Shown in pieces: positions 3,949 through 20,233 of a DNA stretch of 64,000 bases. Below the pieces are notes generated by a model. The model ran no database searches, had not been told where the DNA came from, and worked only from the letters and a program-made list of their open reading frames with translations. The first letter of the stretch is position 1. Each line of letters opens with the position of its first letter. The translations under genes were made by a program, and so were the position numbers. Source of the stretch: an uncultured Gammaproteobacteria bacterium (GTDB taxonomy: Bacteria; Patescibacteriota; Microgenomatia; Levybacterales; GWA1-39-11); assembly GCA_964627245.1 (NCBI GenBank), contig CAZVGS010000001.1:89256-153255 (forward strand). The letters run 5' to 3'.

Positions 3949-4121
3949 ATAAATGTATGTGTGCTTCCTATAATATACTCAGAAAATAACTTGAAGGTCA
4001 AGAGGAAATGGAAAAAATTTGTGAGCATGATGAGTATAGAATGGAACACCTTAGAATCCTCATTCATGCGAATCTATAATACTCTGAATAAGTATAACAT
4101 AGCGGTTCCTGCGTTTGCGTC

Positions 4122-4132
4122 TGTAGTATAAT
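4122..4132 (+). promoter_or_regulatory. -10 box TATAAT (4127-4132) 5 nt upstream of ATG 4138, preceded by TGTAGT
   Basis: Sequence tcTGTAGTATAATgccgtATG. The spacing suits a leaderless or near-leaderless transcript. Confidence 0.4.
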
Positions 4133-4137
4133 GCCGT

Positions 4138-4809
4138 ATGGAACTCCCATACAGTGAATATGTCTGGTTCTCTCCGCGATTCGCGATGAATTACCTCACA
4201 GACTTGATGAGAAAATACACTCCTGATGTTGTACTGAGAAGCCCCAAATACAAGAAAGAAAAAGAAGCATGGATTATGGGCGTAGCACTCTTCGGGGTTA
4301 TTAAAATCACCCGTGTTAGGTGGTGGTTACAAGTGCCAACTGATGACCCACCAGACATGAAGGCTATGATGTTAACGCCAGACCATGATAAAAACCTCAA
4401 TATCATGAATTATCGTGAAGTTGAAATAATGCAAATCACCAAACATACTAACGGAACTATTGTTGAGGAGATTTTGAGAAAGTTAAAGGGTAATTCATAC
4501 CCCAAGGAATGGGCACTAGTCGTCTACTTAAACCGTGCAATGTTTATAGAAGATATGCGAAAAATATCAAACGAACTCGTTGAGGCAAAACCGAAAATCG
4601 CAGATATATGGGTAGTTGCCAGCACTACACCAAATGCGAATAAATACATACTATTTTCTCTTTTCCCAGAGGTTCAGACAGTTACATACGATATTGATGA
4701 GGAGATGAGAAATTTAGAAATTGGAGACTCTATTGACCTCATGCCATACCATAAAGGTACGACAATGACATTAATCCGCAATGTTAAACGCACAAAATTT
4801 ATTCCCTGA
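4138..4809 (+). CDS. hypothetical protein (first gene of element)
   Basis: 223-aa ORF with no antisense competitor of similar quality. No motif recognised with confidence. Confidence 0.55.
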   Translation: MELPYSEYVWFSPRFAMNYLTDLMRKYTPDVVLRSPKYKKEKEAWIMGVALFGVIKITRVRWWLQVPTDDPPDMKAMMLTPDHDKNLNIMNYREVEIMQITKHTNGTIVEEILRKLKGNSYPKEWALVVYLNRAMFIEDMRKISNELVEAKPKIADIWVVASTTPNANKYILFSLFPEVQTVTYDIDEEMRNLEIGDSIDLMPYHKGTTMTLIRNVKRTKFIP

Positions 4810-4839
4810 CCTCTGAATTAGCTACTGCAAACCTCAAAA

Positions 4840-4862
4840 AAAACTTGACTTCCTGCCCGTTA
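4840..4862 (+). promoter_or_regulatory. conserved promoter/operator-like box, copy 1 (AAAACTTGACTTCCTGCCCGTTA)
   Basis: 22 of 23 nt identical to 10587-10609. Contains the -35-like TTGACT. Lies 20 nt upstream of the RHH gene. Confidence 0.5.
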
Positions 4863-4881
4863 TCCGATTACGGTTATCAGT

Positions 4882-5037
4882 ATGAAGTCAACACGTGCGA
4901 CAATCATACTCTCTTCAGACGTTCATGAAGCCTTAAGACGAATGGCGTTTCAAAGACGGCTAAGCATCTCAAAACTGGTCCGACTTTCCCTCATTGACTT
5001 CCTTTTGAAGCATGGGGAGAAAAGACCGGAGGAATAG
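4882..5037 (+). CDS. ribbon-helix-helix (CopG/Arc-like) DNA-binding protein, 51 aa
   Basis: Found by hand because it is below the ORF-track cutoff: MKSTRATIILSSDVHEALRRMAFQRRLSISKLVRLSLIDFLLKHGEKRPEE. It shows the beta-strand/helix/helix pattern of RHH repressors and antitoxins. Confidence 0.55.
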   Translation: MKSTRATIILSSDVHEALRRMAFQRRLSISKLVRLSLIDFLLKHGEKRPEE

Positions 5038-5088
5038 TATGACAGGGGTGAGATTGTCCATCCTTGCCCCGCATACTAATGATTAGCT

Positions 5089-5208: not shown

Positions 5209-5209
5209 T

Positions 5210-5509
5210 ATGAATTTAGAATTTAACAAAACATGCGAATTATGCAGGGATGAGTTTACCCTTACCCACAGGCCACACAGAGGCGGAACAATAGTCTCAC
5301 GGTTGTGTCCTAATTGTGAATCAATCAAACCTGAGATTGAAAAGGTAATGTACGGCAAATCCTACTCAAGCGCAACGGATGAGGATAAAGCCAGAATCTT
5401 CGAACGCGCACGGGAAAACAGAACAGTCAGACGCGGACCGTTCTTCAATCCCAAAGACAACGGAACGGGCGGAAAAGTTCAGTCAGAATACGAAAGGAGA
5501 AAAAGGTAA
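5210..5509 (+). CDS. small zinc-ribbon protein
   Basis: 99 aa with CELC…CPNC (CxxC-x23-CxxC). Confidence 0.5.
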   Translation: MNLEFNKTCELCRDEFTLTHRPHRGGTIVSRLCPNCESIKPEIEKVMYGKSYSSATDEDKARIFERARENRTVRRGPFFNPKDNGTGGKVQSEYERRKR

Positions 5510-5712
5510 TGCCGACAAGAAATAATACAGAAGGAAAGGTATTCGGTGATATTGAGGGACAGACAAACCACCCTGAGGGACTGGACATGACAAAACAGTT
5601 AAAAATGAGGGAAGGACAGCGCAGCGGATTGGTCAGAATGGGAGTACCGAAAAGCATCGTCAGAGCAAGTATCAATCAGGCTCAGTTTAAGCCTACAAGA
5701 AAGGGTAAATAA
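5509..5712 (+). CDS. hypothetical small protein
   Basis: 67 aa. Its start shares one nucleotide with the upstream TAA (TAATG coupling). Confidence 0.45.
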   Translation: MPTRNNTEGKVFGDIEGQTNHPEGLDMTKQLKMREGQRSGLVRMGVPKSIVRASINQAQFKPTRKGK

Positions 5713-5795
5713 TGATCACTTACTGTTCGGAATGCGGGTACAGACTTTTCCGGGGTAAATACCGATACTACTGTATTAACAAAGAATGCTTATGA
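5712..5795 (+). CDS. possible 27-aa zinc-ribbon mini-protein
   Basis: Hand-translated MITYCSECGYRLFRGKYRYYCINKECL (CxxC…CxxxxC). The start abuts the upstream stop. It is very short, so speculative. Confidence 0.2.
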   Translation: MITYCSECGYRLFRGKYRYYCINKECL

Positions 5796-5968
5796 TAGAT
5801 GAATTACTTGATGATATGGCAATTGAGATTGAACGGCTAATGGTAAGCGATGCGGTTAAAGCCCGCCTGAGATTACAGCTTGCAGAGCTTGCGGATAATA
5901 CCCAGGAGCTACGGCTGAAAGCACTATTTGACTGTATTCTGTTCGAGGCCAAAAAACTAAACACATGA
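5786..5968 (+). CDS. hypothetical small helical protein
   Basis: 60-aa ORF with an ATGA overlap onto the next ORF. Confidence 0.4.
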   Translation: MLMIDELLDDMAIEIERLMVSDAVKARLRLQLAELADNTQELRLKALFDCILFEAKKLNT

Positions 5969-6264
5969 AACTATACGAAAAAGCAATAAAACAACTGGAG
6001 CGGGATAAACCTAAGGTAACTATTGAGGATAACACAGCCAAGAGAATAGAAATCCTGAACAAACTGTTACAGGCAGAATACGGATTCATTGAGCAGAACA
6101 AAGATGAAGTAACGAAAGAGCTGAAAGGACGGTTCAAAGAAACCCTGATAAATGAAGTACTTGAAGAGATTAAGAATCACAGCAATACCGGTAAAACACC
6201 GTACTATGTAGGACTACAGATCGCCAGCGATACGGTACAAAAACGAAAGGGAAAACAGCAATAA
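5965..6264 (+). CDS. hypothetical protein
   Basis: 99-aa ORF, charged and helical, translationally coupled to its neighbours. Confidence 0.5.
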   Translation: MKLYEKAIKQLERDKPKVTIEDNTAKRIEILNKLLQAEYGFIEQNKDEVTKELKGRFKETLINEVLEEIKNHSNTGKTPYYVGLQIASDTVQKRKGKQQ

Positions 6265-6265
6265 T

Positions 6266-6613
6266 ATGAAACAAAATAAGACCATTTCCCCCTTAGAAGG
6301 AAATAATGAGGAAGCCGAACAGGCTACAAAAGAGATACGGTCAGGCAAGTCAGCTAGTGGAAAGAAATCTTCCCCCCCCGTTCCCCGTCCCCAACAAACA
6401 CCGTTTAAGATAAACAAACTCTCGGATATCCGCAAAGCAAGTAAGGTACTCATGACTGATTTAATCAACAAGGAGGGCAGGTTCACGGTTGCAGAAAGCA
6501 GAGTATTCAAGGACATGGCAGAGCTGTACTTTAAGGCGGAGGAGAACATTACAACCAAGAGACTAATGAATAAGCTGAAGAAAGAAAACGACACGGACAG
6601 AAAGGGGCGGTAG
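6266..6613 (+). CDS. hypothetical basic protein
   Basis: 115-aa ORF that starts 1 nt after the upstream stop. Confidence 0.5.
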   Translation: MKQNKTISPLEGNNEEAEQATKEIRSGKSASGKKSSPPVPRPQQTPFKINKLSDIRKASKVLMTDLINKEGRFTVAESRVFKDMAELYFKAEENITTKRLMNKLKKENDTDRKGR

Positions 6614-6796
6614 CGCAGGGGTATGGGTACTGAATAAACTGTACGGTATTTCAATGATGCTACACCACCCCCCACCTATACCTACACCCCGCGCGGTGGG
6701 ACACGGGTAAAGGGAGTGACATATAGAGGAAGTACTTAACGGTGTACAGAAGGTAACCCATTGAAGCGAACTCTTATAAATTTTTTGGGAGATTTT

Positions 6797-6805
6797 TGTC
6801 ATAAT
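6797..6805 (+). promoter_or_regulatory. extended -10 (TGtCATAAT) 6 nt upstream of ATG 6812
   Basis: Sequence tttTGTCATAATaactgtATG. Confidence 0.35.
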
Positions 6806-6811
6806 AACTGT

Positions 6812-7006
6812 ATGAATGATACCAACTTTCTAATTTCTCTGGCTATTGGTTTTGTTATATTTTTACTTTTTTCATTTAGTGGCCCAAAAACGCATCGCGA
6901 TCCATTCTATGGTGATATTGATAACATTTCGCATAGTATTGCTGTTGGATTGATCTGTATGGGGGCAACGTACAGTATTTTGCAAATTATTAGTAGTATG
7001 TTTTGA
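6812..7006 (+). CDS. small two-TM membrane protein
   Basis: Internal Met of ORF 6761..7006. The product is MNDTNFLISLAIGFVIFLLF…GLICMGATYSILQIISSMF with two hydrophobic helices. The start was chosen because of the -10 box placement. Confidence 0.4.
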   Translation: MNDTNFLISLAIGFVIFLLFSFSGPKTHRDPFYGDIDNISHSIAVGLICMGATYSILQIISSMF

Positions 7007-7092
7007 TGTCCCAATTTGACAAAGATTGATTAGCACGATACGGTGTATAAGCTTGGTAAAGGATACTATGGCAGTATTCTAATCTACAAAGG

Positions 7093-7117
7093 AGCATCTC
7101 TCAGGAGGTGCTTTTTT
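7093..7117 (+). terminator. intrinsic terminator
   Basis: AGCATCTC-tcag-GAGGTGCT stem (8 bp, one G-U pair) followed by TTTTTT. It lies inside the N-terminal extension of track ORF 7043..7399. Confidence 0.55.
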
Positions 7118-7126
7118 GTGTCTATT

Positions 7127-7135
7127 TGGTATAAT
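7127..7135 (+). promoter_or_regulatory. extended -10 (TGgTATAAT) 6 nt upstream of ATG 7142
   Basis: Sequence attTGGTATAATgaattaATG. Confidence 0.45.
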
Positions 7136-7141
7136 GAATTA

Positions 7142-7399
7142 ATGGATTATAAAACTGCCAGTGAGCTACTTAGAGAACTTTCTCTACTTTGGATATGGGA
7201 AGCCGGAAACTATAATAATAAAATTCCATCCAACTTGCTTACCCGGGATCTTTGTTATTATGACCAGGCGTGCGACTATTTACGACGATTTCCTAAAACA
7301 GGTGATCTTGAACGTGTGGCCCTCGCTCAAATGCAGATGAATTACATTGACGATATTGAGGGGAATAATGAAATGGAAAAATTATTTTCCATCCTCTAA
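7142..7399 (+). CDS. hypothetical protein, 85 aa
   Basis: Internal Met (MDYKTASELL…) of track ORF 7043..7399. The upstream part of that ORF contains a terminator and a promoter. Confidence 0.4.
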   Translation: MDYKTASELLRELSLLWIWEAGNYNNKIPSNLLTRDLCYYDQACDYLRRFPKTGDLERVALAQMQMNYIDDIEGNNEMEKLFSIL

Positions 7400-7528: not shown

Positions 7529-7822
7529 TTAGTACTCTCCTACGCGTTCAGCCCATTGAGGAGGTGTTCTTTCGTCCTCTTCGCTATGTAATTGAGTTTC
7601 AAATGATATTTTCGAGGCGTGTTCTATAGTGGAATCTTTACCTACTTCGCCACCTATTCCGAGTACGGTAATTCCTACTTTTCCGCCTCCCTTGTCACTC
7701 TTGGTAACTGCAATATCAAATTTAACGGAGCTTGAAACATAATTACCGCCAGTGTGAGCGTCCTTTATCTGCCTGAGGCTTTCTTGTATGAAGTCTTTTA
7801 GTTCGTTATTTTCGTCTGCCAT
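7529..7822 (-). CDS. trypco2-like (trypsin-co-occurring domain 2 / CU044_2847-like) small protein; family assignment tentative
   Basis: 97 aa. The pattern LKDFIQESLRQIKDA…VKFDIAVTKSDKGGGKVGITVLGIGGEVGKDSTIEHASKISFETQL resembles the helix plus beta-hairpin Gly-rich pattern I recall for trypco2 domains. Confidence 0.45.
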   Translation of the reverse strand: MADENNELKDFIQESLRQIKDAHTGGNYVSSSVKFDIAVTKSDKGGGKVGITVLGIGGEVGKDSTIEHASKISFETQLHSEEDERTPPQWAERVGEY

Positions 7823-7823
7823 A

Positions 7824-8291
7824 TTATACGGTTACCTTCTTTTTCTTGAACCTTCTGTATCCTAAATATCCCAATCCCCCAAGTAGTGCCATTGCCACAA
7901 CCCCACCACCTCCACTATCTTCACTCGCTCCCTGAACGGCTATGGTTGGTGTAGGCTCTTTGGGCGAGGGTGTATTCGTGGGTTCATCCGTAGGTTCAGC
8001 GGTAGGAGTAGGAGTATTGGTAACAGCACGGGTTGGTATTCTCGAGGGTGCGGTTGTGTTTATCGGTGCAAATTGTTTTACGGGTGCGGTTGTTGCAACG
8101 GGTGCACTTTCAACCCTTTTTACGCTTCCGTCTGGGTTATGGTGGTGATATTCTCCAGAGCCTAAACCCCATTCTTCGCAATTAGTACGGCATCTATGAC
8201 CACCGCTCCCGTCGGTCCCTCCAGGATGGGCTTCTATAGGGGAAACAGATATATAGAAGAGCAGGGATAAGATAAGTAAAGTTTGATACAT
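7824..8291 (-). CDS. YHYH-domain secreted protein with PT linker and C-terminal TM/basic anchor
   Basis: Signal peptide, then AHPGGTDGSGGHRCRTNCEEWGLGSGEYHHHN (YHYH-family signature), a PT-rich linker, and GGGGVVAMALLGGLGYLGYRRFKKKK at the C-terminus. Confidence 0.7.
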   Translation of the reverse strand: MYQTLLILSLLFYISVSPIEAHPGGTDGSGGHRCRTNCEEWGLGSGEYHHHNPDGSVKRVESAPVATTAPVKQFAPINTTAPSRIPTRAVTNTPTPTAEPTDEPTNTPSPKEPTPTIAVQGASEDSGGGGVVAMALLGGLGYLGYRRFKKKKVTV

Positions 8292-8310
8292 TAACCAGTA
8301 TTATACTCCT

Positions 8311-10227
8311 TTAATCGTGCCAAATGTCATTACCTCTCGCATCCATACCTAACCACTGCTGAGATTTTTCTAATTCCTCACGCCAGTACCACCCGCCGGG
8401 AACTTTTTCTTCTGTCTTTTTCTTAATAGCTGGTTTCCGTGTTGGGGTCGGAGACGGAGCTTCAGTTGTTATCGGGCTAGGGGTAACTGATGGTATTGCG
8501 TTTACCGTTGCTACCGGAGAAAGAATTTCGAGAGCACTCACTTCTTTTATCTTTGTTGCCGAATCAAATAAATAGTAAGTAGTAAATCCAGATACAGTTG
8601 CAAATACAGAGATGAAAATAATGATTTGACTTACAGTGAGATAATTAGCTCTAATGTGTGAAAATGCATAATTAATCCGTTTTGATAGGGGTGGGATTTC
8701 ACTTAACCGTCTTTTGGTATTTCTCATCTGTACAACCAAAATAAACGTTATTATGAAATTCCAAAAAATCCAGAATTGAATAGAAAAATAATCAATATCA
8801 AATAAATGAATATCCCCTGTCCTTAGCCCAATCAGAATTAGAATAGTATAGAAAGTGAAATATATGGTTACAAACCGTGTCGTTTGTGAGAAAGCATGAG
8901 AGACAGATTTGTGTTTCGCGTTAGTTGAAACCCATCCGACAGATTTTTTGAACAATGCGGTTTTTACTGCGTGGGAATACGCATAAGTTCGAGCCATGAG
9001 AATTCCAAAATACCCGAATCGAAATTTAGCGACTGGGAATAACCACAGGTAAACAATTGCAAAAATTAAGTGAGGGTAAAAGAGCAAACTCTTACCGAGA
9101 GGAATATATTCATTGTATAAGAACAGTGTCCAAAAGAGATGGAAAGAGAAGAGGATCATCAAAGGGTGATGTAAATAGAACATAAACCCGGTAATAAAGC
9201 AGAATTTGGTTTTCCACGATGTCTTACCTTTCCAGAAAAATTTTGAAAGCATTAATCGCAAACTACCCATACACCATCTATGTTGTTGGTGGAAAAAGGC
9301 GTATTGATTATCCGGGCATAATCCAATAGATAGAAGTATCGGTACAAATAGAACCCTTAAACCTACTCTTGAAATAGCGTACCCAGTATGAGCATCTTCA
9401 CTGTATTCAATCTGATAGGGTCCGCCGATTGCCTCGATTGCACTTCTCCGATACAATGCACACGAACCACAGCATATAGCCCCCCCGAATCGACTTCTCG
9501 TCACTTGAATAAATCGGTAAAATGGCTCTTCGGCAAATGCTGCGTTATATGCGAATTTTGATTTTTTATATGCATTATCTGACAAATCAAAGTATTGAGG
9601 CGTTTGAACAATTCCGACAGTTGGATCATCCATATACGGGAGCGTTTCTTTTATAAAATCGGGATGGGGTGCGAAATCAGCATCAAAGATTGCGATAAAA
9701 TGACCATTAGACCTCTCAAAAGTATGTTTCAAATTTCCAGCCTTTTTCATATGTCCCTTATTCGGCCGTTCCATATAAACGAATCCAAAGTGTTGAGCCA
9801 ATTCTTTATGCGCCTCGAAATTTTCCTTCGAATCATCCAATACGTATACGGTTTTATTTTTATAGTTAATGTTTGATACGTGTTCCCAGGTATTTCTGAG
9901 TACGTCAACTTCTTCACCACAAATAGGCAAGAAAATATCAACGGGGGGTTCTTTGTCATATGATTTTACAAGTGCAAAGTGTTTCAGCAAGTCAAATTGA
10001 CGGTAAAACAAGTTAAGGCCAAAGCTGGCAAGGTGATAAATAGAGAGTAGTATAAAAATTGGAATGACAAAAAATGAATAAAACGGGTCTATCCCTATGA
10101 CGTTCCAGTACCCAAGCATAATCAAGATCCATGAGAAAATCCCAAATCCATACAGTAATCTAACTTTCCAGGTGGGAGTTTTTTCAATATACAGGTACTT
10201 ATTAATTGTCGAGGGGTTGGGGAGCAT
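8311..10227 (-). CDS. processive family-2 glycosyltransferase (cellulose/chitin-synthase-like) with a C-terminal PT-rich tail
   Basis: 638 aa, multi-TM, with VLDDS, FDADF, QTPQYF, SEDAHTG and QQHRW (QxxRW) motifs. There is an extra C-terminal TM region, a PT linker and a GGWYWREE…tail. Confidence 0.85.
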   Translation of the reverse strand: MLPNPSTINKYLYIEKTPTWKVRLLYGFGIFSWILIMLGYWNVIGIDPFYSFFVIPIFILLSIYHLASFGLNLFYRQFDLLKHFALVKSYDKEPPVDIFLPICGEEVDVLRNTWEHVSNINYKNKTVYVLDDSKENFEAHKELAQHFGFVYMERPNKGHMKKAGNLKHTFERSNGHFIAIFDADFAPHPDFIKETLPYMDDPTVGIVQTPQYFDLSDNAYKKSKFAYNAAFAEEPFYRFIQVTRSRFGGAICCGSCALYRRSAIEAIGGPYQIEYSEDAHTGYAISRVGLRVLFVPILLSIGLCPDNQYAFFHQQHRWCMGSLRLMLSKFFWKGKTSWKTKFCFITGFMFYLHHPLMILFSFHLFWTLFLYNEYIPLGKSLLFYPHLIFAIVYLWLFPVAKFRFGYFGILMARTYAYSHAVKTALFKKSVGWVSTNAKHKSVSHAFSQTTRFVTIYFTFYTILILIGLRTGDIHLFDIDYFSIQFWIFWNFIITFILVVQMRNTKRRLSEIPPLSKRINYAFSHIRANYLTVSQIIIFISVFATVSGFTTYYLFDSATKIKEVSALEILSPVATVNAIPSVTPSPITTEAPSPTPTRKPAIKKKTEEKVPGGWYWREELEKSQQWLGMDARGNDIWHD

Positions 10228-10232
10228 ACGAA

Positions 10233-15100: not shown

Positions 15101-15391
15101 ACAGACGAGGAAGCCGATTATCTGAAGGACCTGATTAAAAAAAGTAAAGGAACGTACAAAGGTCCGAAGGCAAAAGGCGGTAAGAAAGCGGGCGCAAAGA
15201 AAGTAACGGCAGGAAGTATCCCGACAATTAAGATTCCTACTTTTGCGGGCGGTACGGTTAAGAGTGTCAGCAAGGCATATTACAAACCGATACCAAAGAT
15301 TACCTATGAAAGACCTACGCCTACTTCAAAACAAAAAGTATCAGCTCCGAAGCCTGAGACTAATTTTAAATCATACGGAGGGAACAACTAA
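12107..15391 (+). CDS. large (1094 aa) protein of unknown function with N-terminal triple repeat and basic C-terminal tail
   Basis: Longest ORF of the element. It has three copies of (D/E)(D/E)VG(N/T/K)RF(R/G)(S/E)F in the first ~100 aa and a Lys-rich C-terminus (KAKGGKKAGAKK…). I found no Walker A or other catalytic motif. Confidence 0.75.
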   Translation: MELKSLLRDVSRRYNEYNRKQKKPRIQPSLIEDVGNRFRSFVKEQSQEGQPLHKITRTIQELPLVTQREVDEVGTRFRSFVDERQKNVDDVGKRFGEFKVKASQFSKDYDPFNFDEKAPINQLPVLGDIRRTLQPYTNPYKLGPMELMRRNTELMQKESKGIALTDEEKEFQKYYMTEQASMVMPMGTVGKVAKPALTALQKEAVKKLPKILYEFDAKTANKVIDEAKGASKEWVDEFKSWVNTRASAQLQGLNQRMKFKDMDSEGIAGIFKFQAGDKTGRFADVKKFFDSRYSELQKAGVEFRYKQEYLPQLWLNSKEEVEERLGRTLTSRPSFSLRSVIENYQKGIANGLKPRFQTLSELIGWYEAKTAKVIADQNFYNYMKKAKYILPEDTAPAWWKTIDSEKFPKFTVKVGSEVKNLNYKAEGRIADAINNYLNDPEGALPAFADFATKVKNLGLSAGVPHTSINFHGYNIFVRSVLASNNPVSSIFRTGQWMLKPKIAERFVMNNLEDAQYFVKNGMTMSTEDYGLFEAVEKVKKSGVINKTLDKYEEWFGDPLFKKSLPAIKIQYTRALFDDLLKTLPEEEAVKIAVKSANDVFGGINLNELMRNKQTQNVLRSVLLAPDWAESTIRMGKGIVKGVANPLSPEYKAYRTFAKNMVFGYITANVVNKALSGHWMFENEGNNKFNIDTGTYTGDGKKRYFRIWGTAVDFARLPVDIVNGLSKGDPSAFVRTFTNRLSMPVGSAGHLLFNKDYLGRPVYGKDQWGNEIDPIQSAGGITNEVLRGVGTPTQVMAGIDLLTGRSNPEQALAQSLELPMRYQGGASSDTQKRRNAAFQSLGFEGEALAREMERTKGMRYSGSQGEEKSLLDHIGEKFMSVFGKKEPNRPQPNDPLTKAFLADIEKDENATRVREVFKLGLSKEQTEQLLEKEGLGTYEEAELIIMKALGVENGTRGNYIQEITKGMDDESKEATLSYLAENEILTTSVISQWVDDGEITDEEADYLKDLIKKSKGTYKGPKAKGGKKAGAKKVTAGSIPTIKIPTFAGGTVKSVSKAYYKPIPKITYERPTPTSKQKVSAPKPETNFKSYGGNN

Positions 15392-15393
15392 TT

Positions 15394-15579
15394 ATGAATA
15401 AAAAGTGTCTTACATGCGGGACGGAATTACAGAAACGAAAACATGAAAGCCGGGCAAGATTTGAAAAAAAGCAGTTCTGTACGGCCGAACATGCCAGGAC
15501 ACATATGAAGGAAACAGGGCGTGGCTGGTGGAATCCGGAATTTGATAGAGGAAAACTCAGAGCAAAGGGGGTGAATTAA
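15394..15579 (+). CDS. small zinc-binding protein
   Basis: 61 aa with CLTC…CTAEH. Confidence 0.5.
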   Translation: MNKKCLTCGTELQKRKHESRARFEKKQFCTAEHARTHMKETGRGWWNPEFDRGKLRAKGVN

Positions 15580-15581
15580 AT

Positions 15582-15776
15582 ATGAACAAAGACCAATTAA
15601 GAGATGAAATGCAACAGGTAGCTTATGACACTATTCGGGGCGTTTCAGGACAACAGGTAAACGAGATTGATTACAAGAACGCGCTTGTATCAAAAACTCA
15701 GGAAGTCGTTGACGGAGCATATCAGCTCGGTTATAACGCGGGCTTTGAGGCGGGCAAAAACGCGCCACAAGGTTAA
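15582..15776 (+). CDS. hypothetical small protein
   Basis: 64-aa ORF, tightly packed against its neighbours. Confidence 0.5.
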   Translation: MNKDQLRDEMQQVAYDTIRGVSGQQVNEIDYKNALVSKTQEVVDGAYQLGYNAGFEAGKNAPQG

Positions 15777-15808
15777 GAAATATTAAAAATGAAAGGAGGT
15801 GTAAAAAT

Positions 15809-16201
15809 ATGATTCGCAGAGATAAAACAAATTACGATCCTAACAAGGATAAATACAACTGGACGAACGACATGTACCGACAGGATGAGCTTTCTAACAG
15901 GGATTTAGAAGAACAGAAAGCGATAATCAATAACTGGCAGGCTATGAGTGAAAGTAAAAATGAAGCTGAAAAAGCCGAATGGGAACTGAACAGAAGAATT
16001 GCAGCGGTTACCGAAACGGATAATGCAGACATCAGACAGAAAGAGGCAATTAAGAGATACAAAATAGCCCAAAAATATGACGAGATAATCCGTAGCAAAA
16101 TGACAAGAGGCCAGACAGAGGAAGAATTTGAAGAAGAACGTCATGAATACGGAGCATTGCATCGCAGGGCTTTAAAAGAGGCTATGCGGTCAATTGAATA
16201 A
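15809..16201 (+). CDS. hypothetical charged helical protein
   Basis: 130-aa ORF preceded by a strong SD (aaaggaggtgtaaaaatATG). Confidence 0.55.
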   Translation: MIRRDKTNYDPNKDKYNWTNDMYRQDELSNRDLEEQKAIINNWQAMSESKNEAEKAEWELNRRIAAVTETDNADIRQKEAIKRYKIAQKYDEIIRSKMTRGQTEEEFEEERHEYGALHRRALKEAMRSIE

Positions 16202-16553
16202 TATGAGGGACGAGAAATGTATTGAATGCAGTGAGCAATTCACGATTACGGAAAGTGAACAATCATTTTATGTAAAGATGGGGTTCTTTCTTCCGAAAAG
16301 ATGCGCTGATTGCAGAAGAAAAAGAAAAGCTCAATTCGGGCAGGAAAGGAGGTTTAACTTAATGAATAATTCAAAACTTACAACATCAAGAATTACAAAG
16401 GCCACGAAGCAGGAAGCACCTAAAAATGCTATAGATTTTGCTTCTGACCAGAGAAAGGGAGTAACCAACTCTCAGGCTCCTGAAATTCGTGCGAATAACG
16501 GAACCATCTCTAGCAACGGCGGACGGTTCGGCGGATTCCTTAAGAACCGCTAA
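16194..16553 (+). CDS. zinc-ribbon protein (zf-trcl-like CxxC…EQxFY…RCxxCR)
   Basis: 119 aa. CIECSEQFTITESEQSFYVKMGFFLPKRCADCRRKRK matches the pattern I recall for the 'probable zinc-ribbon' family. Confidence 0.55.
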   Translation: MNNMRDEKCIECSEQFTITESEQSFYVKMGFFLPKRCADCRRKRKAQFGQERRFNLMNNSKLTTSRITKATKQEAPKNAIDFASDQRKGVTNSQAPEIRANNGTISSNGGRFGGFLKNR

Positions 16554-16963
16554 CGGTAATTGGAGGGCAGGTTGTTGTTCGTGAGTTCAAACGGAAACGA
16601 GCAGTTTCCGGGTAATGTGTTCCTCATGAGCAACGCTCTGTCCTTCAGGACGGAATGGCTTACAGCCTGAGATTTCATAGCTCTCAGTCAACACCAACGG
16701 GCGGAGCGGGTAAAGAATGTGCAGGAAAATCAGTCTCACAATAATAACTTTACCTGCCCGCTACGAAGTGCATACTCTACGGCTCTGTAATGCCTCAAAA
16801 ACGAGAGGAAATGCCTGAATCATACACATATACCATTAACGGGGTAAGACACGAAAAACGAAACTATACGGCCTTCTGGACCATAGATGAATAATAAATA
16901 TATTATGTATGTACAGGCACATAATTAGTTAAGATAACAGTAATTACTTAACGTACTATAAGC

Positions 16964-16992: not shown

Positions 16993-16999
16993 TAATATG

Positions 17000-17203: not shown

Positions 17204-17344
17204 GTGGCTTGAATGAGGGGAATCGTCAGCGCGTTCCTCTCCTTCAATTCGCAAGAATTGAGGTAAGTAGTTAAGTCCTTTGTCTGGCTGGCATTTGCTT
17301 CTTTGTCAGTCAGTCAAAGCATTTAAGGAAAGGGGGTGAAAATT

Positions 17345-17608
17345 ATGGACAAAAGTAACGAAAACAACCTATGCAATCATTCATTCGGCGAAATAACTGA
17401 ATCAACTGACGGAGTATTTTTTATTGACTGTGAACTTTGCGAAAAGAGAGTAAGAATGACTGATGAACAGTCTGAAGAATTCATGAAATTTAGAGAAAGT
17501 ATGTGTCAGAAATGCAAATCGAATACGGCCGATTGCGGTGATTTATGTAAACGTTGTGACGGTATTTACAAAATTTTAGAGGCTACAAGAACGGAAGAAT
17601 CATGGTAA
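17345..17608 (+). CDS. Cys-rich (double zinc-ribbon-like) small protein
   Basis: ATG at 17345, 8 nt after the GGGGG SD. The track ORF starts at GTG 17336. Motifs are CNH…CELC…CQKC…C…CKRC. Confidence 0.5.
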   Translation: MDKSNENNLCNHSFGEITESTDGVFFIDCELCEKRVRMTDEQSEEFMKFRESMCQKCKSNTADCGDLCKRCDGIYKILEATRTEESW

Positions 17609-17689: not shown

Positions 17690-18106
17690 ATGGAACACAA
17701 AATATTTAATAAAAAGCATGGATTTACGCAGATTGAAAACTGTATTCTGCGCAGTTCTGTTTTAAGCCAGTCAGCAAAGTTGGTTTATGCTGACCTCGTT
17801 TCTTATGACTTTAATAGTAAAGGAGTTTTCCCGGGACAAGACAGAATGGCATGGGATTTGAGAATGTCACTTAGAACCATCATCCGCGCAATTAAAGAAC
17901 TGGAATCCTGGGGTTTGATAACCGTTGAGCGAAGGGGTAGGAACAAACCCAACTTTTACATTATTGAAGAGGTCCCCCAGAAATTAAAAGATATGTTCAA
18001 CTTTACCCAGCTCGAATGGAAAATACAAAAGGATATGTCACCGGAACAAAGAGCTGAAAGAAACAAAGTTGTGAAAAAACAATGGAAAGAATTCGGCTGG
18101 ATTTGA
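17690..18106 (+). CDS. winged-HTH protein, replication-initiator/DnaD-N-like
   Basis: 138 aa with a strong SD (gagaaggaggt). FTQIENCILRS…SAKLVYADLVSY…FPGQDRMAWDLRMSLRTIIRAIKELESWGLITVERRG resembles the HTH_36/phage replication-organiser N-terminal pattern. Confidence 0.55.
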   Translation: MEHKIFNKKHGFTQIENCILRSSVLSQSAKLVYADLVSYDFNSKGVFPGQDRMAWDLRMSLRTIIRAIKELESWGLITVERRGRNKPNFYIIEEVPQKLKDMFNFTQLEWKIQKDMSPEQRAERNKVVKKQWKEFGWI

Positions 18107-18109
18107 GCG

Positions 18110-18183
18110 GGATGTGACAAATGGGATACTTCAGGATGTGACACCAGAGTAACCGAAGAATACTAAGATCTAATAATACTAAG
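18110..18183. repeat. iteron-like direct repeats (candidate replication origin)
   Basis: GGATGTGACA at 18110 and 18134, with a related GGGATACT at 18122. AATACTAAG at 18159 and 18175. A TCGCT triplet run follows at ~18190-18212. Confidence 0.45.
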
Positions 18184-18345
18184 TCTCACACTCACTCGCT
18201 TTCGCTCGCTCGTTGGCGCAGCAGAAATAATTGTTTTACCACGAATGATTACTATTAAGTTTTCTTTCGAGGCTTTTCTTATTCTCGGCTATAACGACAA
18301 GAGGTTTTCGCTTATCATTAACTCTCACAAAAATGATCAATAGTG

Positions 18346-18374
18346 TTGAGTATATAAGATAAAAGTGCTATATT
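18346..18374 (+). promoter_or_regulatory. promoter for small ORF + recombinase (TTGAGT-17-TGcTATATT)
   Basis: -35 TTGAGT at 18346-18351, a 17-nt spacer ending in TGc, and -10 TATATT at 18369-18374. Confidence 0.45.
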
Positions 18375-18394
18375 GTATATATCTTTTCTGATAG

Positions 18395-18422
18395 AACGTG
18401 AGAGGTTCTACTTACTCACGTT
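18395..18422 (+). promoter_or_regulatory. perfect 8-bp inverted repeat abutting the start codon at 18423
   Basis: AACGTGAG-N12-CTCACGTT immediately followed by ATG. Could be an operator or a translation-occluding hairpin. Confidence 0.4.
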
Positions 18423-18560
18423 ATGACTATTCAGGAAAAAGAACAATTAAAAAATTTACCTCCCTTACCTGAAGAGGTTGAAGCTAAATTGCGTGCATTC
18501 GTTAATCTGATTATCGACCGCGTGCAGGAAGAACAGGCCAAGGGGGTAGTAAAAAAATGA
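18423..18560 (+). CDS. possible 45-aa protein translationally coupled to the recombinase (RDF/accessory candidate)
   Basis: Hand-translated MTIQEKEQLKNLPPLPEEVEAKLRAFVNLIIDRVQEEQAKGVVKK. Its TGA overlaps the recombinase ATG (ATGA). Confidence 0.3.
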   Translation: MTIQEKEQLKNLPPLPEEVEAKLRAFVNLIIDRVQEEQAKGVVKK

Positions 18561-20233
18561 AGTATCAGGCAGTTGCTTTACTCCGTGTATCATCGACAAA
18601 ACAGGGCCTTCAGGGCGATTCTCCAGACGACCAAAAAGTTCAGATTATAATCAAGGCTTCCACCTTCAACATCTTACCCGAACAGATTAAATTCTTTAAG
18701 CTCATACAGTCAGCATCGGGCGAAATTCAGCCCGCACAGGACGTTATAGACTTCTGTAAAACAAATCAGGTTGAATACTGCTTTATTAAATCCATTGACC
18801 GATTTACGCGCGGTGGTGCCGATTTTTATCCATATCTTAAGAATCAACTTATAAAAGTAGGTGTTCAGTTAGTAGATGTATTCGGTGTGATCAATCCGAC
18901 AGAAGTGAATACTCTTGAACATCTCGGAATGTCATTCAAGTGGAGCAAATACCACCCTTCCTATACCTCCGAATTACTGGAAGCCGAACGCGCAAAGTCT
19001 GAGGTCCGGGATATTCTTTCCAGACTTATCGGGGCGGAAATCCGTTATATCCGTATGGGTTATTGGGTAGGTCCACCGCCACAGGGATTAGTTACCGATA
19101 AGATAGAGACTGACTTTGACGGAAAAAGAACAATTCTTTCCCCTGACCCGAAGCGAAGCATCTTCTTTAAGCGGATGTTTGAACTTCGCGCTCAGGGTAA
19201 TCTTACCGACCATGAAATAGTTACCGCAATCAATGAAATGGGATATAAATCCCCTGAAAGACGAAGAAGAAAGAGCAAGCACGACCCGACCGTTATCGGA
19301 ATAATCGGTGGTACGCCGTTAACCTGCAAGCAGATGAGAAACTTTATCGAAAACCCCATATACGCGGGAATAATCGTTCACGGATTCTCACAATTCAAGC
19401 CCGTAAAAGCGAAGTTCGAAGGACTTGTGAGTGTTGGTACATGGAACAAGGCCAATAGAGGCAGAGCTACAATCGTAACAGACGGAGATACGATCAGAAT
19501 TCTCAGACAGGAACCTGAATCGTGGCAATTAACCAAGCAGAAGCAGAATCCTGAATTTCCGTACAGGGAGTTCGTATTATGTTCTGAGTGTAAACACCCG
19601 CTGAAAGGTTCATTCTCTACCGGGAAACTCGGCAAAAAGTATCCGGGATATCATTGTTCGCTCAGACATAAGCTTTATAGAATCCCGAGGAAGGACTTTG
19701 ATAAAACCATAGAGAAATTTGTATCAGAGGTAAAGTTCTCCGACCGATTCAAACTATATCTCAAAAAGTACGCGCTTGAGGAAATGGAGAAACGAAGAAT
19801 GCTTGCGGTTGATGATTCGCTGCATTTCCAACAACTCACGGCAAACCTGACGGCCGAGAAAAAACTAATCCTTGAGAAAGTGAAAATCCTCTCAAATCCT
19901 CTCATGCTCAAAGAACTTGAAAAACAGCTTGAAGATGTGGAGGCAAAGCTTATTCAGGCCAAGCAGAAGCGCAATAATAAGGAAGAAGCTGAGGTTCAAA
20001 TTGACACTTTAATTGCACATGCGAATTATTACATGGAACACCTCAAGGAATTACTCTTTTCAGGCACGAATCCGATACGGGACGCGGAGTTTTTCAGCCT
20101 GTTATTTGAAGAATTACCTACCTATAAAGAACTGGAGGATGGAACACCTAAATTAGATTGTCTGTTCAGGCTAAATGAAGCATTCAATACGCCTCAAAGT
20201 GATGTTGTGAGCGGCCAGGGACTCGAACCCTGA
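18557..20233 (+). CDS. large serine recombinase (integrase)
   Basis: 558 aa. N-terminal resolvase domain (ALLRVSSTKQ with catalytic Ser, IDRFTRGG), a recombinase domain (GYWVGPPPQG), a zinc ribbon (CSECKHPL…YHCS) and a C-terminal coiled coil. The last 26 nt overlap tRNA-Lys on the opposite strand. Confidence 0.9.
   Translation: MKYQAVALLRVSSTKQGLQGDSPDDQKVQIIIKASTFNILPEQIKFFKLIQSASGEIQPAQDVIDFCKTNQVEYCFIKSIDRFTRGGADFYPYLKNQLIKVGVQLVDVFGVINPTEVNTLEHLGMSFKWSKYHPSYTSELLEAERAKSEVRDILSRLIGAEIRYIRMGYWVGPPPQGLVTDKIETDFDGKRTILSPDPKRSIFFKRMFELRAQGNLTDHEIVTAINEMGYKSPERRRRKSKHDPTVIGIIGGTPLTCKQMRNFIENPIYAGIIVHGFSQFKPVKAKFEGLVSVGTWNKANRGRATIVTDGDTIRILRQEPESWQLTKQKQNPEFPYREFVLCSECKHPLKGSFSTGKLGKKYPGYHCSLRHKLYRIPRKDFDKTIEKFVSEVKFSDRFKLYLKKYALEEMEKRRMLAVDDSLHFQQLTANLTAEKKLILEKVKILSNPLMLKELEKQLEDVEAKLIQAKQKRNNKEEAEVQIDTLIAHANYYMEHLKELLFSGTNPIRDAEFFSLLFEELPTYKELEDGTPKLDCLFRLNEAFNTPQSDVVSGQGLEP

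What the first reader, a model, noticed from the sequence alone, without database searches (positions are those of the whole stretch)
4019..20233. ~16 kb integrated element with a serine integrase but no recognisable virion, packaging or conjugation genes
The block is bounded on the right by a large serine recombinase that runs into tRNA-Lys(CUU). It contains ~25 tightly coupled plus-strand ORFs. Only five products exceed 200 aa: 223, 345, 1094 and 558 aa (the integrase), plus the 638-aa cargo GT2. No ORF has the size and P-loop expected of a terminase, and I saw nothing resembling a portal, HK97 or jelly-roll capsid, tail, Zot-type ATPase, relaxase or VirB4/TraG. What I can recognise is regulatory or replicative: an RHH protein, a wHTH initiator-like protein with iterons, and many zinc-ribbon mini-proteins. 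So this is either a very divergent small virus (non-tailed, perhaps membrane-containing), a satellite, or an integrative plasmid-like element of a reduced-genome bacterium. Its structural module (345-aa coiled-coil plus 1094-aa protein) would have no described relatives.
Basis: partly seen in the sequence, partly recalled or inferred. Interest (0 to 1): 0.85.

Follow-up and report, generated by a model that had tools for sequence, protein, structure and literature searches.

The report
Capsid-less integrative element, likely phage satellite
A 16.2-kb mobile element sits in a tRNA-Lys gene of a Levybacteria-like (CPR) bacterium; it has no capsid, portal, tail or packaging genes but keeps two virion-module genes of podoviruses, so it is most likely a new family of helper-dependent phage satellite.

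Summary
Window 4027-20212 (16,186 bp, 24 ORFs) is a true insertion at the 3' end of tRNA-Lys(CUU). It is flanked by an 8-bp repeat, TTGTGAGC. Related genomes have the same flanks with an empty site.

The integrase is a large serine recombinase. No ORF carries a Walker A motif, and none matches a terminase, portal, capsid, tail, relaxase or Zot protein.

The claim that the 345-aa/1094-aa pair has no relatives is wrong:
- The 1094-aa protein belongs to a family with 3,393 cluster representatives at E <= 1e-3.
- Its model resembles "large polyvalent protein-associated domain" proteins of tailed phages.
- In larger viral contigs the pair, or the large protein alone, lies at the end of a podovirus virion module with an SU10-type capsid protein and tail or fibre proteins.
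- The 345-aa protein folds as three long helices, so it is not a capsid fold.

At least ten compact relatives carry the pair plus a serine recombinase and none of the virion or polymerase markers tested. One is a complete circular genome of about 16.27 kb that carries a terminase large subunit but no capsid gene.

Best reading (about 0.5): a helper-dependent phage satellite lineage derived from podoviruses. No helper phage and no packaging were shown.

A conserved, strand-specific structured RNA (16552-16790) was also found.

The parts
4019..4026 (.). attL core, TTGTGAGC. It duplicates the last 6 nt of tRNA-Lys plus 2 nt.
   Evidence: Identical 8-mer at 20205-20212. Empty sites in L029, L024 and L028 place the junction here.
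4138..4809 (+). 223-aa accessory protein of unknown function, at the end of the element far from the integrase.
   Evidence: No Pfam, PHROG, PADLOC or PDB match. 17 homologues were found. They include one in a 6.5-kb serine-recombinase islet (L062) and one in a host-like context (L060). It is therefore cargo, not a virion protein.
4840..4862 (+). Promoter/operator-like 23-mer, AAAACTTGACTTCCTGCCCGTTA. A second copy lies at 10587-10609.
   Evidence: 23-nt repeat at 96% identity, placed upstream of the two + strand operons.
4882..5037 (+). 51-aa putative RHH (Arc/CopG-like) regulator.
   Evidence: Weak hits only: Antitox_RHH at 0.02 and Arc-like repressor PHROG at 0.01. A homologue is present in L007.
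5210..7399 (+). Seven small ORFs (60-118 aa). They include a CxxC zinc-ribbon protein and one membrane protein. Presumed early or regulatory region.
   Evidence: ORF map. No family matches.
7529..10532 (-). Minus-strand cargo block: 97 aa, a 155-aa secreted Pro/Thr-rich protein, a 638-aa membrane GT2 glycosyltransferase (8311-10227), and a 99-aa secreted protein.
   Evidence: GT2 domains at 1e-20. The block is not shared with any related element.
10790..11062 (+). 90-aa first gene of the conserved late operon.
   Evidence: Homologues occupy the same position in L006 and L007.
11064..12101 (+). F1: 345-aa protein made of three long helices. Candidate internal virion (ejection or scaffold-like) protein.
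   Evidence: AF2 model shows helices 63-150, 155-227 and 234-286 at pLDDT 75-87. The family also lies directly upstream of F0 in the large viral contigs L008/L021 and L009 and in L002. Fold search gave only non-significant hits, some of them to T7-like internal virion proteins.
12107..15391 (+). F0: 1094-aa mostly alpha-helical protein. The conserved core is about residues 230-830, and the C-terminal tail is Lys-rich. Candidate virion-packaged, injected ('polyvalent'/LPD-like) protein.
   Evidence: AF2 core at pLDDT 70-88. Foldseek against BFVD gives LPD-containing Caudovirales proteins at E 1.5e-12 to 1e-4. No PDB match. 3,393 family representatives. It lies at the end of the podovirus virion module in group B contigs.
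15394..16553 (+). Four small late-operon genes: a 61-aa Zn-ribbon protein (F18), a 64-aa protein, a 130-aa charged protein (F19), and a 119-aa treble-clef Zn-finger protein (F10).
   Evidence: F18, F19 and F10 are conserved in L006 and L007, and F10 also in L001. No PHROG function.
16552..16790 (+). Conserved structured RNA with two long hairpin domains, directly after the late operon.
   Evidence: nhmmer hits in L006 and L007. RNAalifold predicts 64 pairs. 93% of cells are paired and 20 pairs have compensatory changes, against 1-3 in the slid controls. Fold z-score is -5.0 on the + strand and -1.0 on the - strand. No Rfam match.
17336..17608 (+). 90-aa Cys-rich zinc protein.
   Evidence: Sequence. 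No family match.
17690..18106 (+). 138-aa winged-helix protein. Candidate replication initiator or helicase-loader N-terminal domain.
   Evidence: Pfam HTH_36 at 3.5e-10. PHROG replication initiation and DnaD-like families at 7e-13 to 1e-7.
18423..18560 (+). 45-aa ORF overlapping the integrase start codon. Unassigned; a recombination directionality factor is possible.
   Evidence: ORF map only. No significant match.
18557..20233 (+). Large serine recombinase (integrase). Its last 8 codons are supplied by tRNA sequence when the element is integrated.
   Evidence: PHROG 95 at 2.6e-31; Pfam Recombinase, Resolvase and Zn_ribbon_recom. The reconstructed attP has dyad symmetry of 15/24 positions centred at the core edge, reached by 9 of 1000 shuffles.
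20205..20212 (.). attR core, TTGTGAGC.
20207..20279 (-). tRNA-Lys(CUU), the integration target. It remains intact after insertion.
   Evidence: ARAGORN. Rfam tRNA at 68 bits, full length.

Best explanation
The block is a member of a previously undescribed lineage of roughly 16-17-kb integrative elements of CPR (Levybacteria-like) bacteria. The lineage derives from podoviruses and most likely spreads as a phage satellite.

**Shown**
- A large serine recombinase inserted the element at the 3' end of tRNA-Lys(CUU).
- The element has no capsid, portal, tail or packaging ATPase genes.
- It keeps a conserved late operon: a 90-aa gene, F1 (345 aa), F0 (1094 aa), small zinc proteins, and a structured RNA.
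- F0, and in some contigs F1, have homologues at the distal end of the virion module of larger podovirus-like genomes.

**Inferred**
1. In the lysogen the element is kept silent by its small regulators, such as the RHH protein.
2. A co-infecting or induced helper podovirus of the F0-bearing group triggers excision and replication. Replication uses the winged-helix initiator and host enzymes.
3. F1 and F0 are built into helper-made procapsids as internal, ejected proteins.
4. The helper's terminase packages the 16-kb genome. In the L011/L035/L039 sub-lineage the element's own TerL would do this.
5. The genome is about one third of the 42-48-kb contigs that carry the group-B relatives, so it could be packaged as a monomer in a small capsid or as a trimer.
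6. On entry into a new cell, F1 and F0 are ejected with the DNA to form or protect the entry path, and the recombinase integrates the element.
7. The GT2/secreted-protein block is lysogenic-conversion cargo.
For: **Precise, variable insertion**
- att core and empty sites in relatives.
- A differently occupied site with another serine recombinase at the same tRNA (L026).
- A contig that breaks exactly at the core (L027).

**No virion or packaging genes in the window element**
- Family scans found none.
- No Walker A motif in a real frame.
- No match to the relative's TerL or to group-B virion families.
- F1 is a three-helix bundle.

**F0 and F1 are phage virion-module genes**
- F0 resembles LPD proteins of Caudovirales at fold level.
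- In IMG/VR contigs of 13-45 kb it follows an SU10-type MCP (PF17236 at 3e-20).
- It also follows a roughly 230-aa and a roughly 640-aa virion-protein family and fibre-like proteins.
- Those genomes also carry PolA and DUF3987.

**Clean split between two groups (census)**
- The recombinase co-occurs with F0/F1 in W, L001, L003, L004, L007, L011, L035, L039, L040 and L043/L053.
- It never co-occurs with the MCP, virion-protein, PolA or DUF3987 markers.
- In the F0 tree six compact elements form one clade at 43-64% identity. L007 is a deep outlier. L035, L039, L040 and L043 were not in the tree.
- This is an old, conserved lineage rather than independent decay.

**One complete genome**
- L011 has a 238-bp terminal overlap (233/238 identical), giving a circle of about 16.27 kb.
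- It carries F1, F0, PrimPol, a D5-like helicase, TerL and the recombinase, and still no capsid, portal or tail gene.
- A terminase without a capsid implies packaging into someone else's capsid.

**Context**
- Size and integrase type match known capsid-less satellites: PLE, and VEIMEs of up to 16.8 kb, more than 80% of which carry integrases including serine recombinases (PMC9618062).
- Polyvalent/LPD proteins are predicted to be packaged and injected with the DNA (PMC5512222).
Against: - No helper phage has been identified.
- There is no evidence of encapsidation, of induction, or of interference genes.
- The 'internal virion/ejection protein' role of F0 and F1 rests on gene order and a remote fold match of helical proteins (TM 0.2-0.45).
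- There is no similarity to solved T7 gp15/gp16 or to any PDB chain.
- The F1 fold search was not significant.
- No known satellite is reported to carry its own ejection proteins, so the rationale is speculative.
- The window's sub-lineage lacks even TerL or a recognisable TerS.
- IMG/VR membership is only a computational 'viral' call.
- Portal and terminase were not seen in the group-B stretches that were fetched (only +/-10 kb each).
Confidence: 0.5

Rival explanations
1. Integrative plasmid-like or mobilisable element. It excises, replicates through the winged-helix initiator, and moves by conjugation, mobilisation, vesicles or natural competence. F0 would be a polyvalent protein transferred with the DNA, as in conjugative elements.
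For: - Polyvalent/LPD proteins also occur on conjugative elements (PMC5512222).
- The HTH_36 plus serine-recombinase backbone also occurs in a 6.5-kb islet without F0 or F1 (L062).
- No packaging gene is present in the window element.
Against: - No relaxase, coupling protein, VirB4 or any P-loop ATPase.
- All informative contexts of F0 and F1 are phage virion modules.
- A sister sub-lineage carries a phage TerL.
Confidence: 0.15
2. Defective prophage remnant. A podovirus prophage lost its head, tail and packaging genes, and the rest persists as a cryptic island.
For: - F0 and F1 come from podovirus virion modules.
- TerL in the L011 clade is split into two ORFs, which could be decay.
- The element carries host-like cargo.
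Against: - The same compact gene set recurs in at least ten elements at 24-64% F0 identity, with intact ORFs and different integration sites.
- One member is a complete circular genome.
- The split TerL has the same 265+209 layout in three diverged members.
- The att sites and integrase are intact, and close relatives have empty sites.
Confidence: 0.12
3. Autonomous small temperate virus with a non-canonical particle. F1 and F0, perhaps with the small zinc proteins and the structured RNA, would form a nucleoprotein or membrane-associated virion without an HK97 or jelly-roll capsid.
For: - A complete 16.27-kb genome with TerL but no known capsid gene exists.
- Genome size is uniform at 16-17 kb across the lineage.
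- A conserved RNA lies next to the late operon.
- Capsid genes of CPR phages can be hard to recognise (PMC6509639).
Against: - Homologues of F0 and F1 coexist with an ordinary SU10-type MCP and tail or fibre proteins in larger genomes, so they are accessory virion proteins there.
- F1 and F0 are helical and largely disordered at their ends.
- The window element has no packaging ATPase.
- TerL normally needs a portal and a procapsid.
Confidence: 0.1

Closest known systems
PLE (phage-inducible chromosomal island-like elements of Vibrio cholerae)
   Same: - About 18 kb and integrated by a large serine recombinase.
- Carries its own winged-helix-type replication initiator.
- Roughly 25 mostly unknown small ORFs.
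- No capsid, portal, tail or terminase genes.
   Different: - No detectable sequence relationship; PHROGs gave only the integrase and initiator hits.
- Different host phylum (CPR).
- PLE has no F0/F1-type large virion-module proteins and no known structured RNA.
- The PLE helper (ICP1) is a myovirus. Helper dependence is proven for PLE but not here.
VEIMEs (virion-encapsidated integrative mobile elements, marine phage satellites; PMC9618062)
   Same: - Below 5 to 16.8 kb.
- More than 80% carry tyrosine or serine integrases.
- They carry replication genes and no major capsid gene.
- They are inferred to ride in helper capsids.
   Different: - VEIMEs were found physically inside virions as concatemers. 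That evidence is missing here.
- In the passages read, no VEIME is described as carrying a 1,000-aa virion-module protein.
SaPI/PICI and P4-type satellites
   Same: - Integrative, at a tRNA or another fixed att site.
- About one third of the helper genome size: 16.2 kb against the 42-48-kb contigs of the F0-bearing phages.
- Carry a few phage-derived morphogenesis genes.
   Different: - Those satellites use tyrosine integrases.
- Their hallmark genes (TerS, CpmA/B, Ppi; Sid, Psu, delta, alpha primase) were not found.
- None of them is known to encode ejection or internal virion proteins.
Podovirus internal virion (ejection) proteins, e.g. T7 gp14/gp15/gp16
   Same: - In the larger relatives F1 and F0 take the gp15/gp16 position: after the capsid protein and the virion or tail proteins, at the end of the structural operon.
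- Both are large and alpha-helical.
   Different: - No sequence or fold match to solved T7 ejection proteins or to any PDB chain.
- No lytic transglycosylase domain.
- Here the genes sit in an element that has no capsid.
Polyvalent / LPD-containing phage proteins (Iyer et al. 2017, PMC5512222)
   Same: - Best fold matches of F0, at E down to 1.5e-12.
- Large size.
- Predicted to be packaged and injected with the DNA.
   Different: - No Pfam LPD, MuF or enzymatic domain is detected in F0.
- Among the five longest family members one has an HATPase_c fusion and the rest have nothing.

Membership tests
Large serine recombinase (phage-type integrase) | N-terminal resolvase catalytic domain, followed by a recombinase domain, a zinc ribbon and a coiled-coil C-terminal part | tested here: met
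   PHROG 95 'integrase' at 2.6e-31 over residues 4-480. Pfam Recombinase at 30.8 bits (cut-off 21.1), Resolvase at 22.6 bits (cut-off 23.3) and Zn_ribbon_recom at 18.1 bits (cut-off 25.3).
Large serine recombinase (phage-type integrase) | Short att core with imperfect dyad symmetry in attP, and no long direct repeats | tested here: met
   8-bp core. The reconstructed attP has 15/24 complementary positions centred at the core edge, reached by 9 of 1000 shuffles.
Tailed-phage prophage (Caudoviricetes) | Terminase large subunit, portal protein and HK97-fold major capsid protein | tested here: not met
   No Pfam or PHROG hit in any ORF. No Walker A motif. No tblastn match to the TerL of L011. No match to the SU10-type MCP family. 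The two candidates of capsid size or larger that were modelled fold as helical proteins.
Non-tailed dsDNA phages (Corticoviridae, Tectiviridae, Autolykiviridae and similar) | Jelly-roll capsid protein plus an FtsK/HerA-type packaging ATPase | tested here: not met
   No P-loop anywhere in a real frame. No matching Pfam or PHROG family. The 223-aa protein was not modelled.
Filamentous phages (Inoviridae) | Zot-type assembly ATPase and an HUH rolling-circle Rep | tested here: not met
   No P-loop ATPase. No Rep or Zot family hit.
Conjugative or mobilisable element (ICE/IME) | Relaxase, with or without a coupling protein (T4CP) and a VirB4 ATPase | tested here: not met
   No such Pfam hit in the 20 ORFs scanned with Pfam; four small ORFs were scanned with PHROGs only. 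No Walker A motif.
Phage satellite (general definition) | Integrative element with its own integrase and att site that is variably present between strains | tested here: met
Phage satellite (general definition) | Lacks a full set of virion genes but carries phage-derived morphogenesis or packaging genes | tested here: met
   No capsid, portal, tail or terminase gene (see above). F0 and F1 have homologues in podovirus virion modules. A sister clade carries TerL only.
Phage satellite (general definition) | Packaged in particles made by a helper phage and dependent on that helper for transfer | not testable with these tools
   This needs virion DNA, read mapping or experiments. The only support is circumstantial. 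L011 (compact) and L020 (podovirus-like) come from the same IMG sample, 3300020192.
PLE | Homology to PLE core genes (RepA, TcaP, NixI, LidI and others) and a Vibrio/ICP1 context | tested here: not met
   PHROGs returned only the generic integrase and initiator hits. The host is a CPR bacterium.
PICI/SaPI, cf-PICI, P4-like | Tyrosine integrase plus hallmark genes: TerS/Cpm/Ppi; or capsid, portal and protease; or Sid/Psu/delta/alpha | tested here: not met
   The integrase is a serine recombinase. No hallmark gene was hit in PHROGs or Pfam.
Polyvalent proteins (Iyer 2017) | Two or more disparate enzymatic or effector domains together with LPD or MuF domains in one polypeptide | tested here: inconclusive
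   Fold-level similarity to LPD proteins at E 1.5e-12. No Pfam domain in F0. Only one HATPase_c fusion among the five long relatives scanned.
T7-type ejection proteins (gp15/gp16) | Similarity to solved gp15/gp16, and a position after the tail genes in the virion operon | tested here: inconclusive
   The position is as expected in the group-B contigs. There is no sequence or fold match to any PDB chain.

The most novel reading that the evidence does not exclude
The compact F1/F0 elements are autonomous, minimal temperate viruses of CPR bacteria. Their particle would be built without an HK97 or jelly-roll capsid. For example, it could be an alpha-helical nucleoprotein or membrane-associated virion made of F1, F0 and the small zinc proteins, with the conserved structured RNA and (in the L011 clade) TerL taking part in genome packaging. 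That would be a new virion architecture derived from podovirus internal proteins.
Probability: 0.08. Interest if true: 0.92.

Novelty: new variant of a known kind. Interest (0 to 1): 0.62.

Why it matters
If the satellite reading is right, this would to my knowledge be the first phage-satellite family proposed for the Candidate Phyla Radiation. My literature searches found no earlier report. Very few phages of these bacteria are known.

It would also be the first satellite type that brings its own internal or ejected virion proteins rather than capsid-size or terminase-redirecting factors. That would point to a new hijacking strategy: replacing the helper's genome-delivery proteins.

The lineage is well defined:
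- at least ten members;
- one complete circular genome of 16.27 kb;
- a clean split from the podovirus-like relatives.

It comes with testable parts: the att sites, a serine integrase whose C-terminus changes on integration, and a strongly supported new structured RNA.

The F0 family (3,393 cluster representatives, no Pfam or PDB match) is a large uncharacterised phage protein family worth structural study.

Tried and rejected
**Searches that found nothing**
- Terminal overlaps in the Logan and ENA contigs L001, L004, L005, L006, L007 and others. None was found, so their similar lengths of about 15 kb are not evidence of circularity.
- Iterons and tandem repeats. Nothing beyond a 10-nt repeat present twice.
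- Consensus promoter and terminator scans. Counts were at chance level.
- INPHARED phage tblastn with F0. No match.
- PDB sequence and fold searches for F0 and the 223-aa protein. Nothing.
- Fold search of F1 against BFVD. Not significant; the hits are generic helical proteins.
- PADLOC scan for defence genes. None.
- Pfam scan of the five longest F0 relatives for fused domains. One HATPase_c only.
- IMG/VR scan with the F1 alignment. Only N-terminal fragments, and their contexts were uninformative.
- Covariance model of RNA domain 1 searched over 43 sources (the window and 42 loci). Found only in W, L006 and L007. A pattern scan of IMG/VR gave three chance matches that the model rejects.
- Nucleotide similarity shared between compact elements and podovirus-like contigs, as a possible pac or cos site. 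Only F0 coding similarity and an IS end were found.
- Nearest cultured phage to the SU10-type MCP (Clostridium phage CB452P1, 23% identity). Its annotation was uninformative.

**Ideas rejected**
- That the left flank 1-4000 belongs to the element. It is syntenic host DNA in L028.
- That the 223-aa protein is related to the TerL of L011. No similarity.

Full report
**1. Observation**

The ORF map matches the finding.
- There are 24 ORFs between 4138 and 20233, 20 of them on the + strand and many coupled by start/stop overlaps.
- A four-gene minus-strand block lies at 7529-10532 and contains a 638-aa GT2 glycosyltransferase.
- Only the 223-, 345-, 1094-, 558- and 638-aa products exceed 200 aa.
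- The 558-aa protein is a large serine recombinase (PHROG 95 at 2.6e-31, plus Pfam Recombinase, Resolvase and Zn_ribbon_recom).
- Its last 27 nt overlap tRNA-Lys(CTT), which lies at 20207-20279 on the minus strand.
- An 8-bp direct repeat, TTGTGAGC, lies at 4019-4026 and 20205-20212.

**2. The block is a real, variable insertion**

A scan of GTDB genomes with a 43-mer of the tRNA returned seven loci.
- In L029, L024, L028 and L023 the homologue of left-flank gene 3388-3948 lies 50-470 bp from the same tRNA-Lys. The tRNA-Arg, GT2 and DUF2079 genes follow, as in window 20655-24079.
- L028 is named Candidatus Levyibacteriota. It also shares the genes at window 227-3381, so window 1-4018 is host DNA despite its similar G+C content.
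- The element is therefore 4027-20212: 16,186 bp, 86% coding, G+C 0.414 against 0.380 in the right flank.
- The site looks like a hotspot. L024 and L028 carry degenerate extra copies of the tRNA 3' end. L026 has a different 592-aa serine recombinase abutting the same tRNA. Contig L027 starts exactly at the core.
- The reconstructed attP has imperfect dyad symmetry, 15 of 24 positions, centred at the edge of the core. Only 9 of 1000 shuffles reach that value. This is as expected for a serine integrase.

**3. What is absent**

- Pfam, PHROGs and PADLOC scans of the ORFs gave no terminase, portal, capsid, tail, Zot, relaxase, VirB4 or defence hit. Four small ORFs (130, 119, 90 and 45 aa) were scanned with PHROGs but not Pfam.
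- The four Walker A matches in the six-frame translation all fall outside real reading frames.
- The recognisable parts are a winged-helix protein (HTH_36 at 3.5e-10; phage replication-initiator and DnaD-like PHROGs at 7e-13), a weak RHH protein (E about 0.01), and several CxxC zinc mini-proteins.

**4. The 345-aa (F1) and 1094-aa (F0) pair**

- A word-indexed homologue search found only 7 relatives of F0. A full profile search found 3,393 cluster representatives at E <= 1e-3 and 802 at E <= 1e-30, with lengths of 600-2,067 aa. None has a Pfam or PDB match.
- The AlphaFold model of F0 is confident only in the core: residues about 230-670 at pLDDT 70-88, and almost entirely helical.
- Foldseek against BFVD gave 20 hits at E <= 1e-3. 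They are dominated by 'large polyvalent protein-associated domain' proteins of uncultured Caudovirales and podoviruses, with a best E of 1.5e-12.
- Foldseek against the PDB gave nothing.
- F1 folds as three long helices (63-150, 155-227, 234-286; pLDDT 75-87) with disordered ends. It is neither an HK97 nor a jelly-roll fold. Its fold search was not significant, although several weak hits are internal virion proteins of T7-like phages.

**5. Context in related DNA: two groups**

I fetched 7 contigs through the homologue searches, 15 IMG/VR loci and 23 metagenome loci.

Group B (L008/L021, L009, L010, L012, L014-L020, L045-L049, L056):
- The contigs reach 48 kb.
- F0, often with F1, lies at the end of a virion module.
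- That module contains an SU10-type major capsid protein (PF17236 at 3e-20 in L020, with a homologue in L019).
- It also contains a family of about 230 aa and one of about 640 aa with PHROG connector, tail and virion-structural hits, plus fibre-like proteins.
- A PolA-UDG fusion, DUF3987 and a ParB-methylase lie nearby.
- The order of capsid protein, the 230-aa family, the 640-aa family, a protein of about 320 aa, F1, then F0 resembles T7 genes 10, 11, 12, 13/14, 15 and 16. This resemblance is an inference.

Group A (W, L001, L003, L004, L006, L007, L011, L035, L039, L040, L043/L053, L038):
- These elements are compact.
- They carry F1 and F0, small proteins, a variable replication module and a serine recombinase. 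The partial loci L006 and L038 show no recombinase.
- Replication modules include DnaG-Toprim-DnaB in L001, PrimPol plus a D5-like helicase in L011, and a DnaD-like protein in L043.

Census and phylogeny:
- In a profile census the recombinase never co-occurs with the capsid, 230-aa, 640-aa, PolA or DUF3987 markers, and those markers never co-occur with the recombinase.
- In a tree of the F0 core, six group-A elements form one clade at 43-64% identity, nested among group-B lineages. L035, L039, L040 and L043 were fetched later and were not in the tree. L007 is a deep outlier for F0 but shares F1, F18, F19 and F10 with the window.
- L040 repeats the window's layout, with the recombinase running up to a tRNA-Arg gene.
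- L003 and L043/L053 are integrated in contigs of 67-417 kb and span roughly 17 kb.

**6. A complete genome**

- The IMG/VR contig of L011 (16,505 bp) begins with F0 and ends with F1.
- Its first 238 bp recur at the end, with 233 of 238 positions identical. This gives a circular or terminally redundant genome of about 16.27 kb.
- L039 confirms the recombinase-to-F1 junction without the IS insertion.
- The gene list is F1, F0, PrimPol, D5-like primase-helicase (PHROG 1829 at 3e-111), small ORFs, a terminase large subunit, the recombinase and a TnpB insertion.
- The terminase is encoded as 265-aa and 209-aa ORFs (Terminase_6N and PHROG 2 at 1e-21, plus a nuclease domain). The layout is conserved in L035 and L039.
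- There is no capsid, portal or tail gene.
- The terminase is absent from the window and from all other loci.

**7. Interpretation**

A conserved lineage of 16-17 kb keeps only integrase, replication and regulatory genes and the two distal virion-module genes. One branch adds a terminase. This is best explained as a helper-dependent satellite derived from the F0-bearing podoviruses.
- It matches capsid-less satellites in size and integrase type, namely PLE and the VEIMEs.
- The 1:3 ratio to the 42-48-kb group-B contigs recalls SaPI/80-alpha and P4/P2. That comparison rests on my own knowledge.
- LPD/polyvalent proteins are predicted to be packaged and injected with the DNA (PMC5512222). A satellite could plausibly need its own copies.
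- Microgenomates are known to host podoviruses and ordinary prophages of about 27 kb with recognisable capsids (PMC6509639). The missing capsid gene is therefore not simply a detection failure.

Helper identity, encapsidation and the role of F0 and F1 remain unshown, so I put confidence at about 0.5. The rivals are an integrative plasmid-like element (0.15), a defective remnant (0.12) and an autonomous virus with a novel particle (0.10).

**8. Side findings**

- *Structured RNA.* Directly after the late operon lies a 240-nt element at 16552-16790. It is conserved at the DNA level in L006 and L007, better than the neighbouring proteins.
  - It forms two long hairpin domains. 93% of cells are paired, and 20 of 64 pairs show compensatory changes against 1-3 in the slid controls.
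  - Invariant G-U pairs make it specific to the + strand. The fold z-score is -5.0 on the + strand and -1.0 on the - strand.
  - It has no Rfam match, and a covariance model finds it only in this sub-lineage.
- *Integrase C-terminus.* The integrase ORF crosses the att core. The integrated form ends ...SDVVSGQGLEP (558 aa). The excised circle would encode a 586-aa form ending ...SDVVSMMSIEWNTLESSFMRIYNTLNKYNIAVPAFASVV.
- *The 223-aa protein.* It is recurrent cargo of CPR islands, not a virion protein.

**9. Verdict**

- I rate the element as a new variant of a known kind, a phage-satellite-like integrative element.
- Its features are unusual: ejection-protein-like genes, a new structured RNA and a CPR host.

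Noticed in passing
window 16552-16790 (+); L006 8089-8330; L007 14172-14410: A new structured RNA with two long hairpin domains lies directly after the late operon. 93% of cells are paired, and 20 of 64 pairs show compensatory changes against 1-3 in the slid controls. The fold z-score is -5.0 on the + strand only. It has no Rfam match. Its function is unknown; candidates are a packaging RNA, an immunity RNA or an antitermination RNA.
   Followed up: partly
window 20205-20233 and 4027-4131: The att core lies inside the 3' end of the integrase gene. The integrated form is 558 aa and ends in tRNA-encoded residues. The excised circle would encode a 586-aa integrase with a different 35-residue tail, in the same frame as ORF 3961-4131. 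This could be an integration-dependent switch.
   Followed up: partly
window 20320-20607 (-), between tRNA-Lys and tRNA-Arg: A small GIY-YIG-type ORF sits in a roughly 375-bp spacer between the two tRNAs. It is 39% identical over 69 aa to a Pfam GIY-YIG protein in L062. In L029 the two tRNAs are only 21 bp apart, so this is probably a separate small insertion.
   Followed up: partly
L024 400-460; L028 (reverse complement) about 400-440; L026; L027 position 1; L023 2980-3200: tRNA-Lys(CUU) is an integration hotspot. 'Empty' sites carry degenerate extra copies of the tRNA 3' end. Another genome has a different 592-aa serine recombinase at the same tRNA. One contig breaks exactly at the core. In L023 the tRNA pair is inverted.
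   Followed up: partly
L011 8419-9829; L035 11060-12470; L039 2106-3516: The terminase large subunit of the compact sub-lineage is encoded as two overlapping ORFs: a 265-aa ATPase part and a 209-aa nuclease part. The layout is the same in three diverged elements. It could be a programmed frameshift, a true split, or shared decay.
   Followed up: no
window 4840-4862 and 10587-10609; 10681-10704 and 17192-17215: A 23-mer (AAAACTTGACTTCCTG[C/T]CCGTTA, 96% identical) and a 24-mer (92% identical) are each repeated upstream of different + strand operons. They are probably shared promoter or operator elements that tie the left arm and the late operon into one regulon.
   Followed up: no
window 4138-4809; L060 10001-12238; L062 1080-1748: The 223-aa family has no known domain and recurs in CPR genomes. 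It is often next to a GIY-YIG gene. In one case it sits at the far end of a 6.5-kb islet that carries HTH_36 and a serine recombinase. In another it occurs as tandem paralogues in a host-like context.
   Followed up: partly
L030 12800-12835 and 14033-14089; L014 18995-19051 and 20493-20528: The TnpB insertion in the circular element L011 shares a 36-nt stretch at 100% identity, and a 57-nt stretch at 86%, with the region around a TnpB gene in the podovirus-like contig L014. This hints that both kinds of element have shared host cells.
   Followed up: partly
window 3388-3948 (-), 7824-8291 (-), 8311-10227 (-): The host flank gene and two cargo genes all encode proteins with Pro/Thr-rich linkers. 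The flank protein and the 155-aa protein also end in a C-terminal membrane anchor. The element's cargo therefore looks host-derived and acts at the cell surface, possibly in receptor modification or superinfection exclusion.
   Followed up: no
L042 10911-11740: One F0-bearing contig from Hainich groundwater carries an array of six tRNA genes downstream of a 1,586-aa F0 homologue.
   Followed up: no
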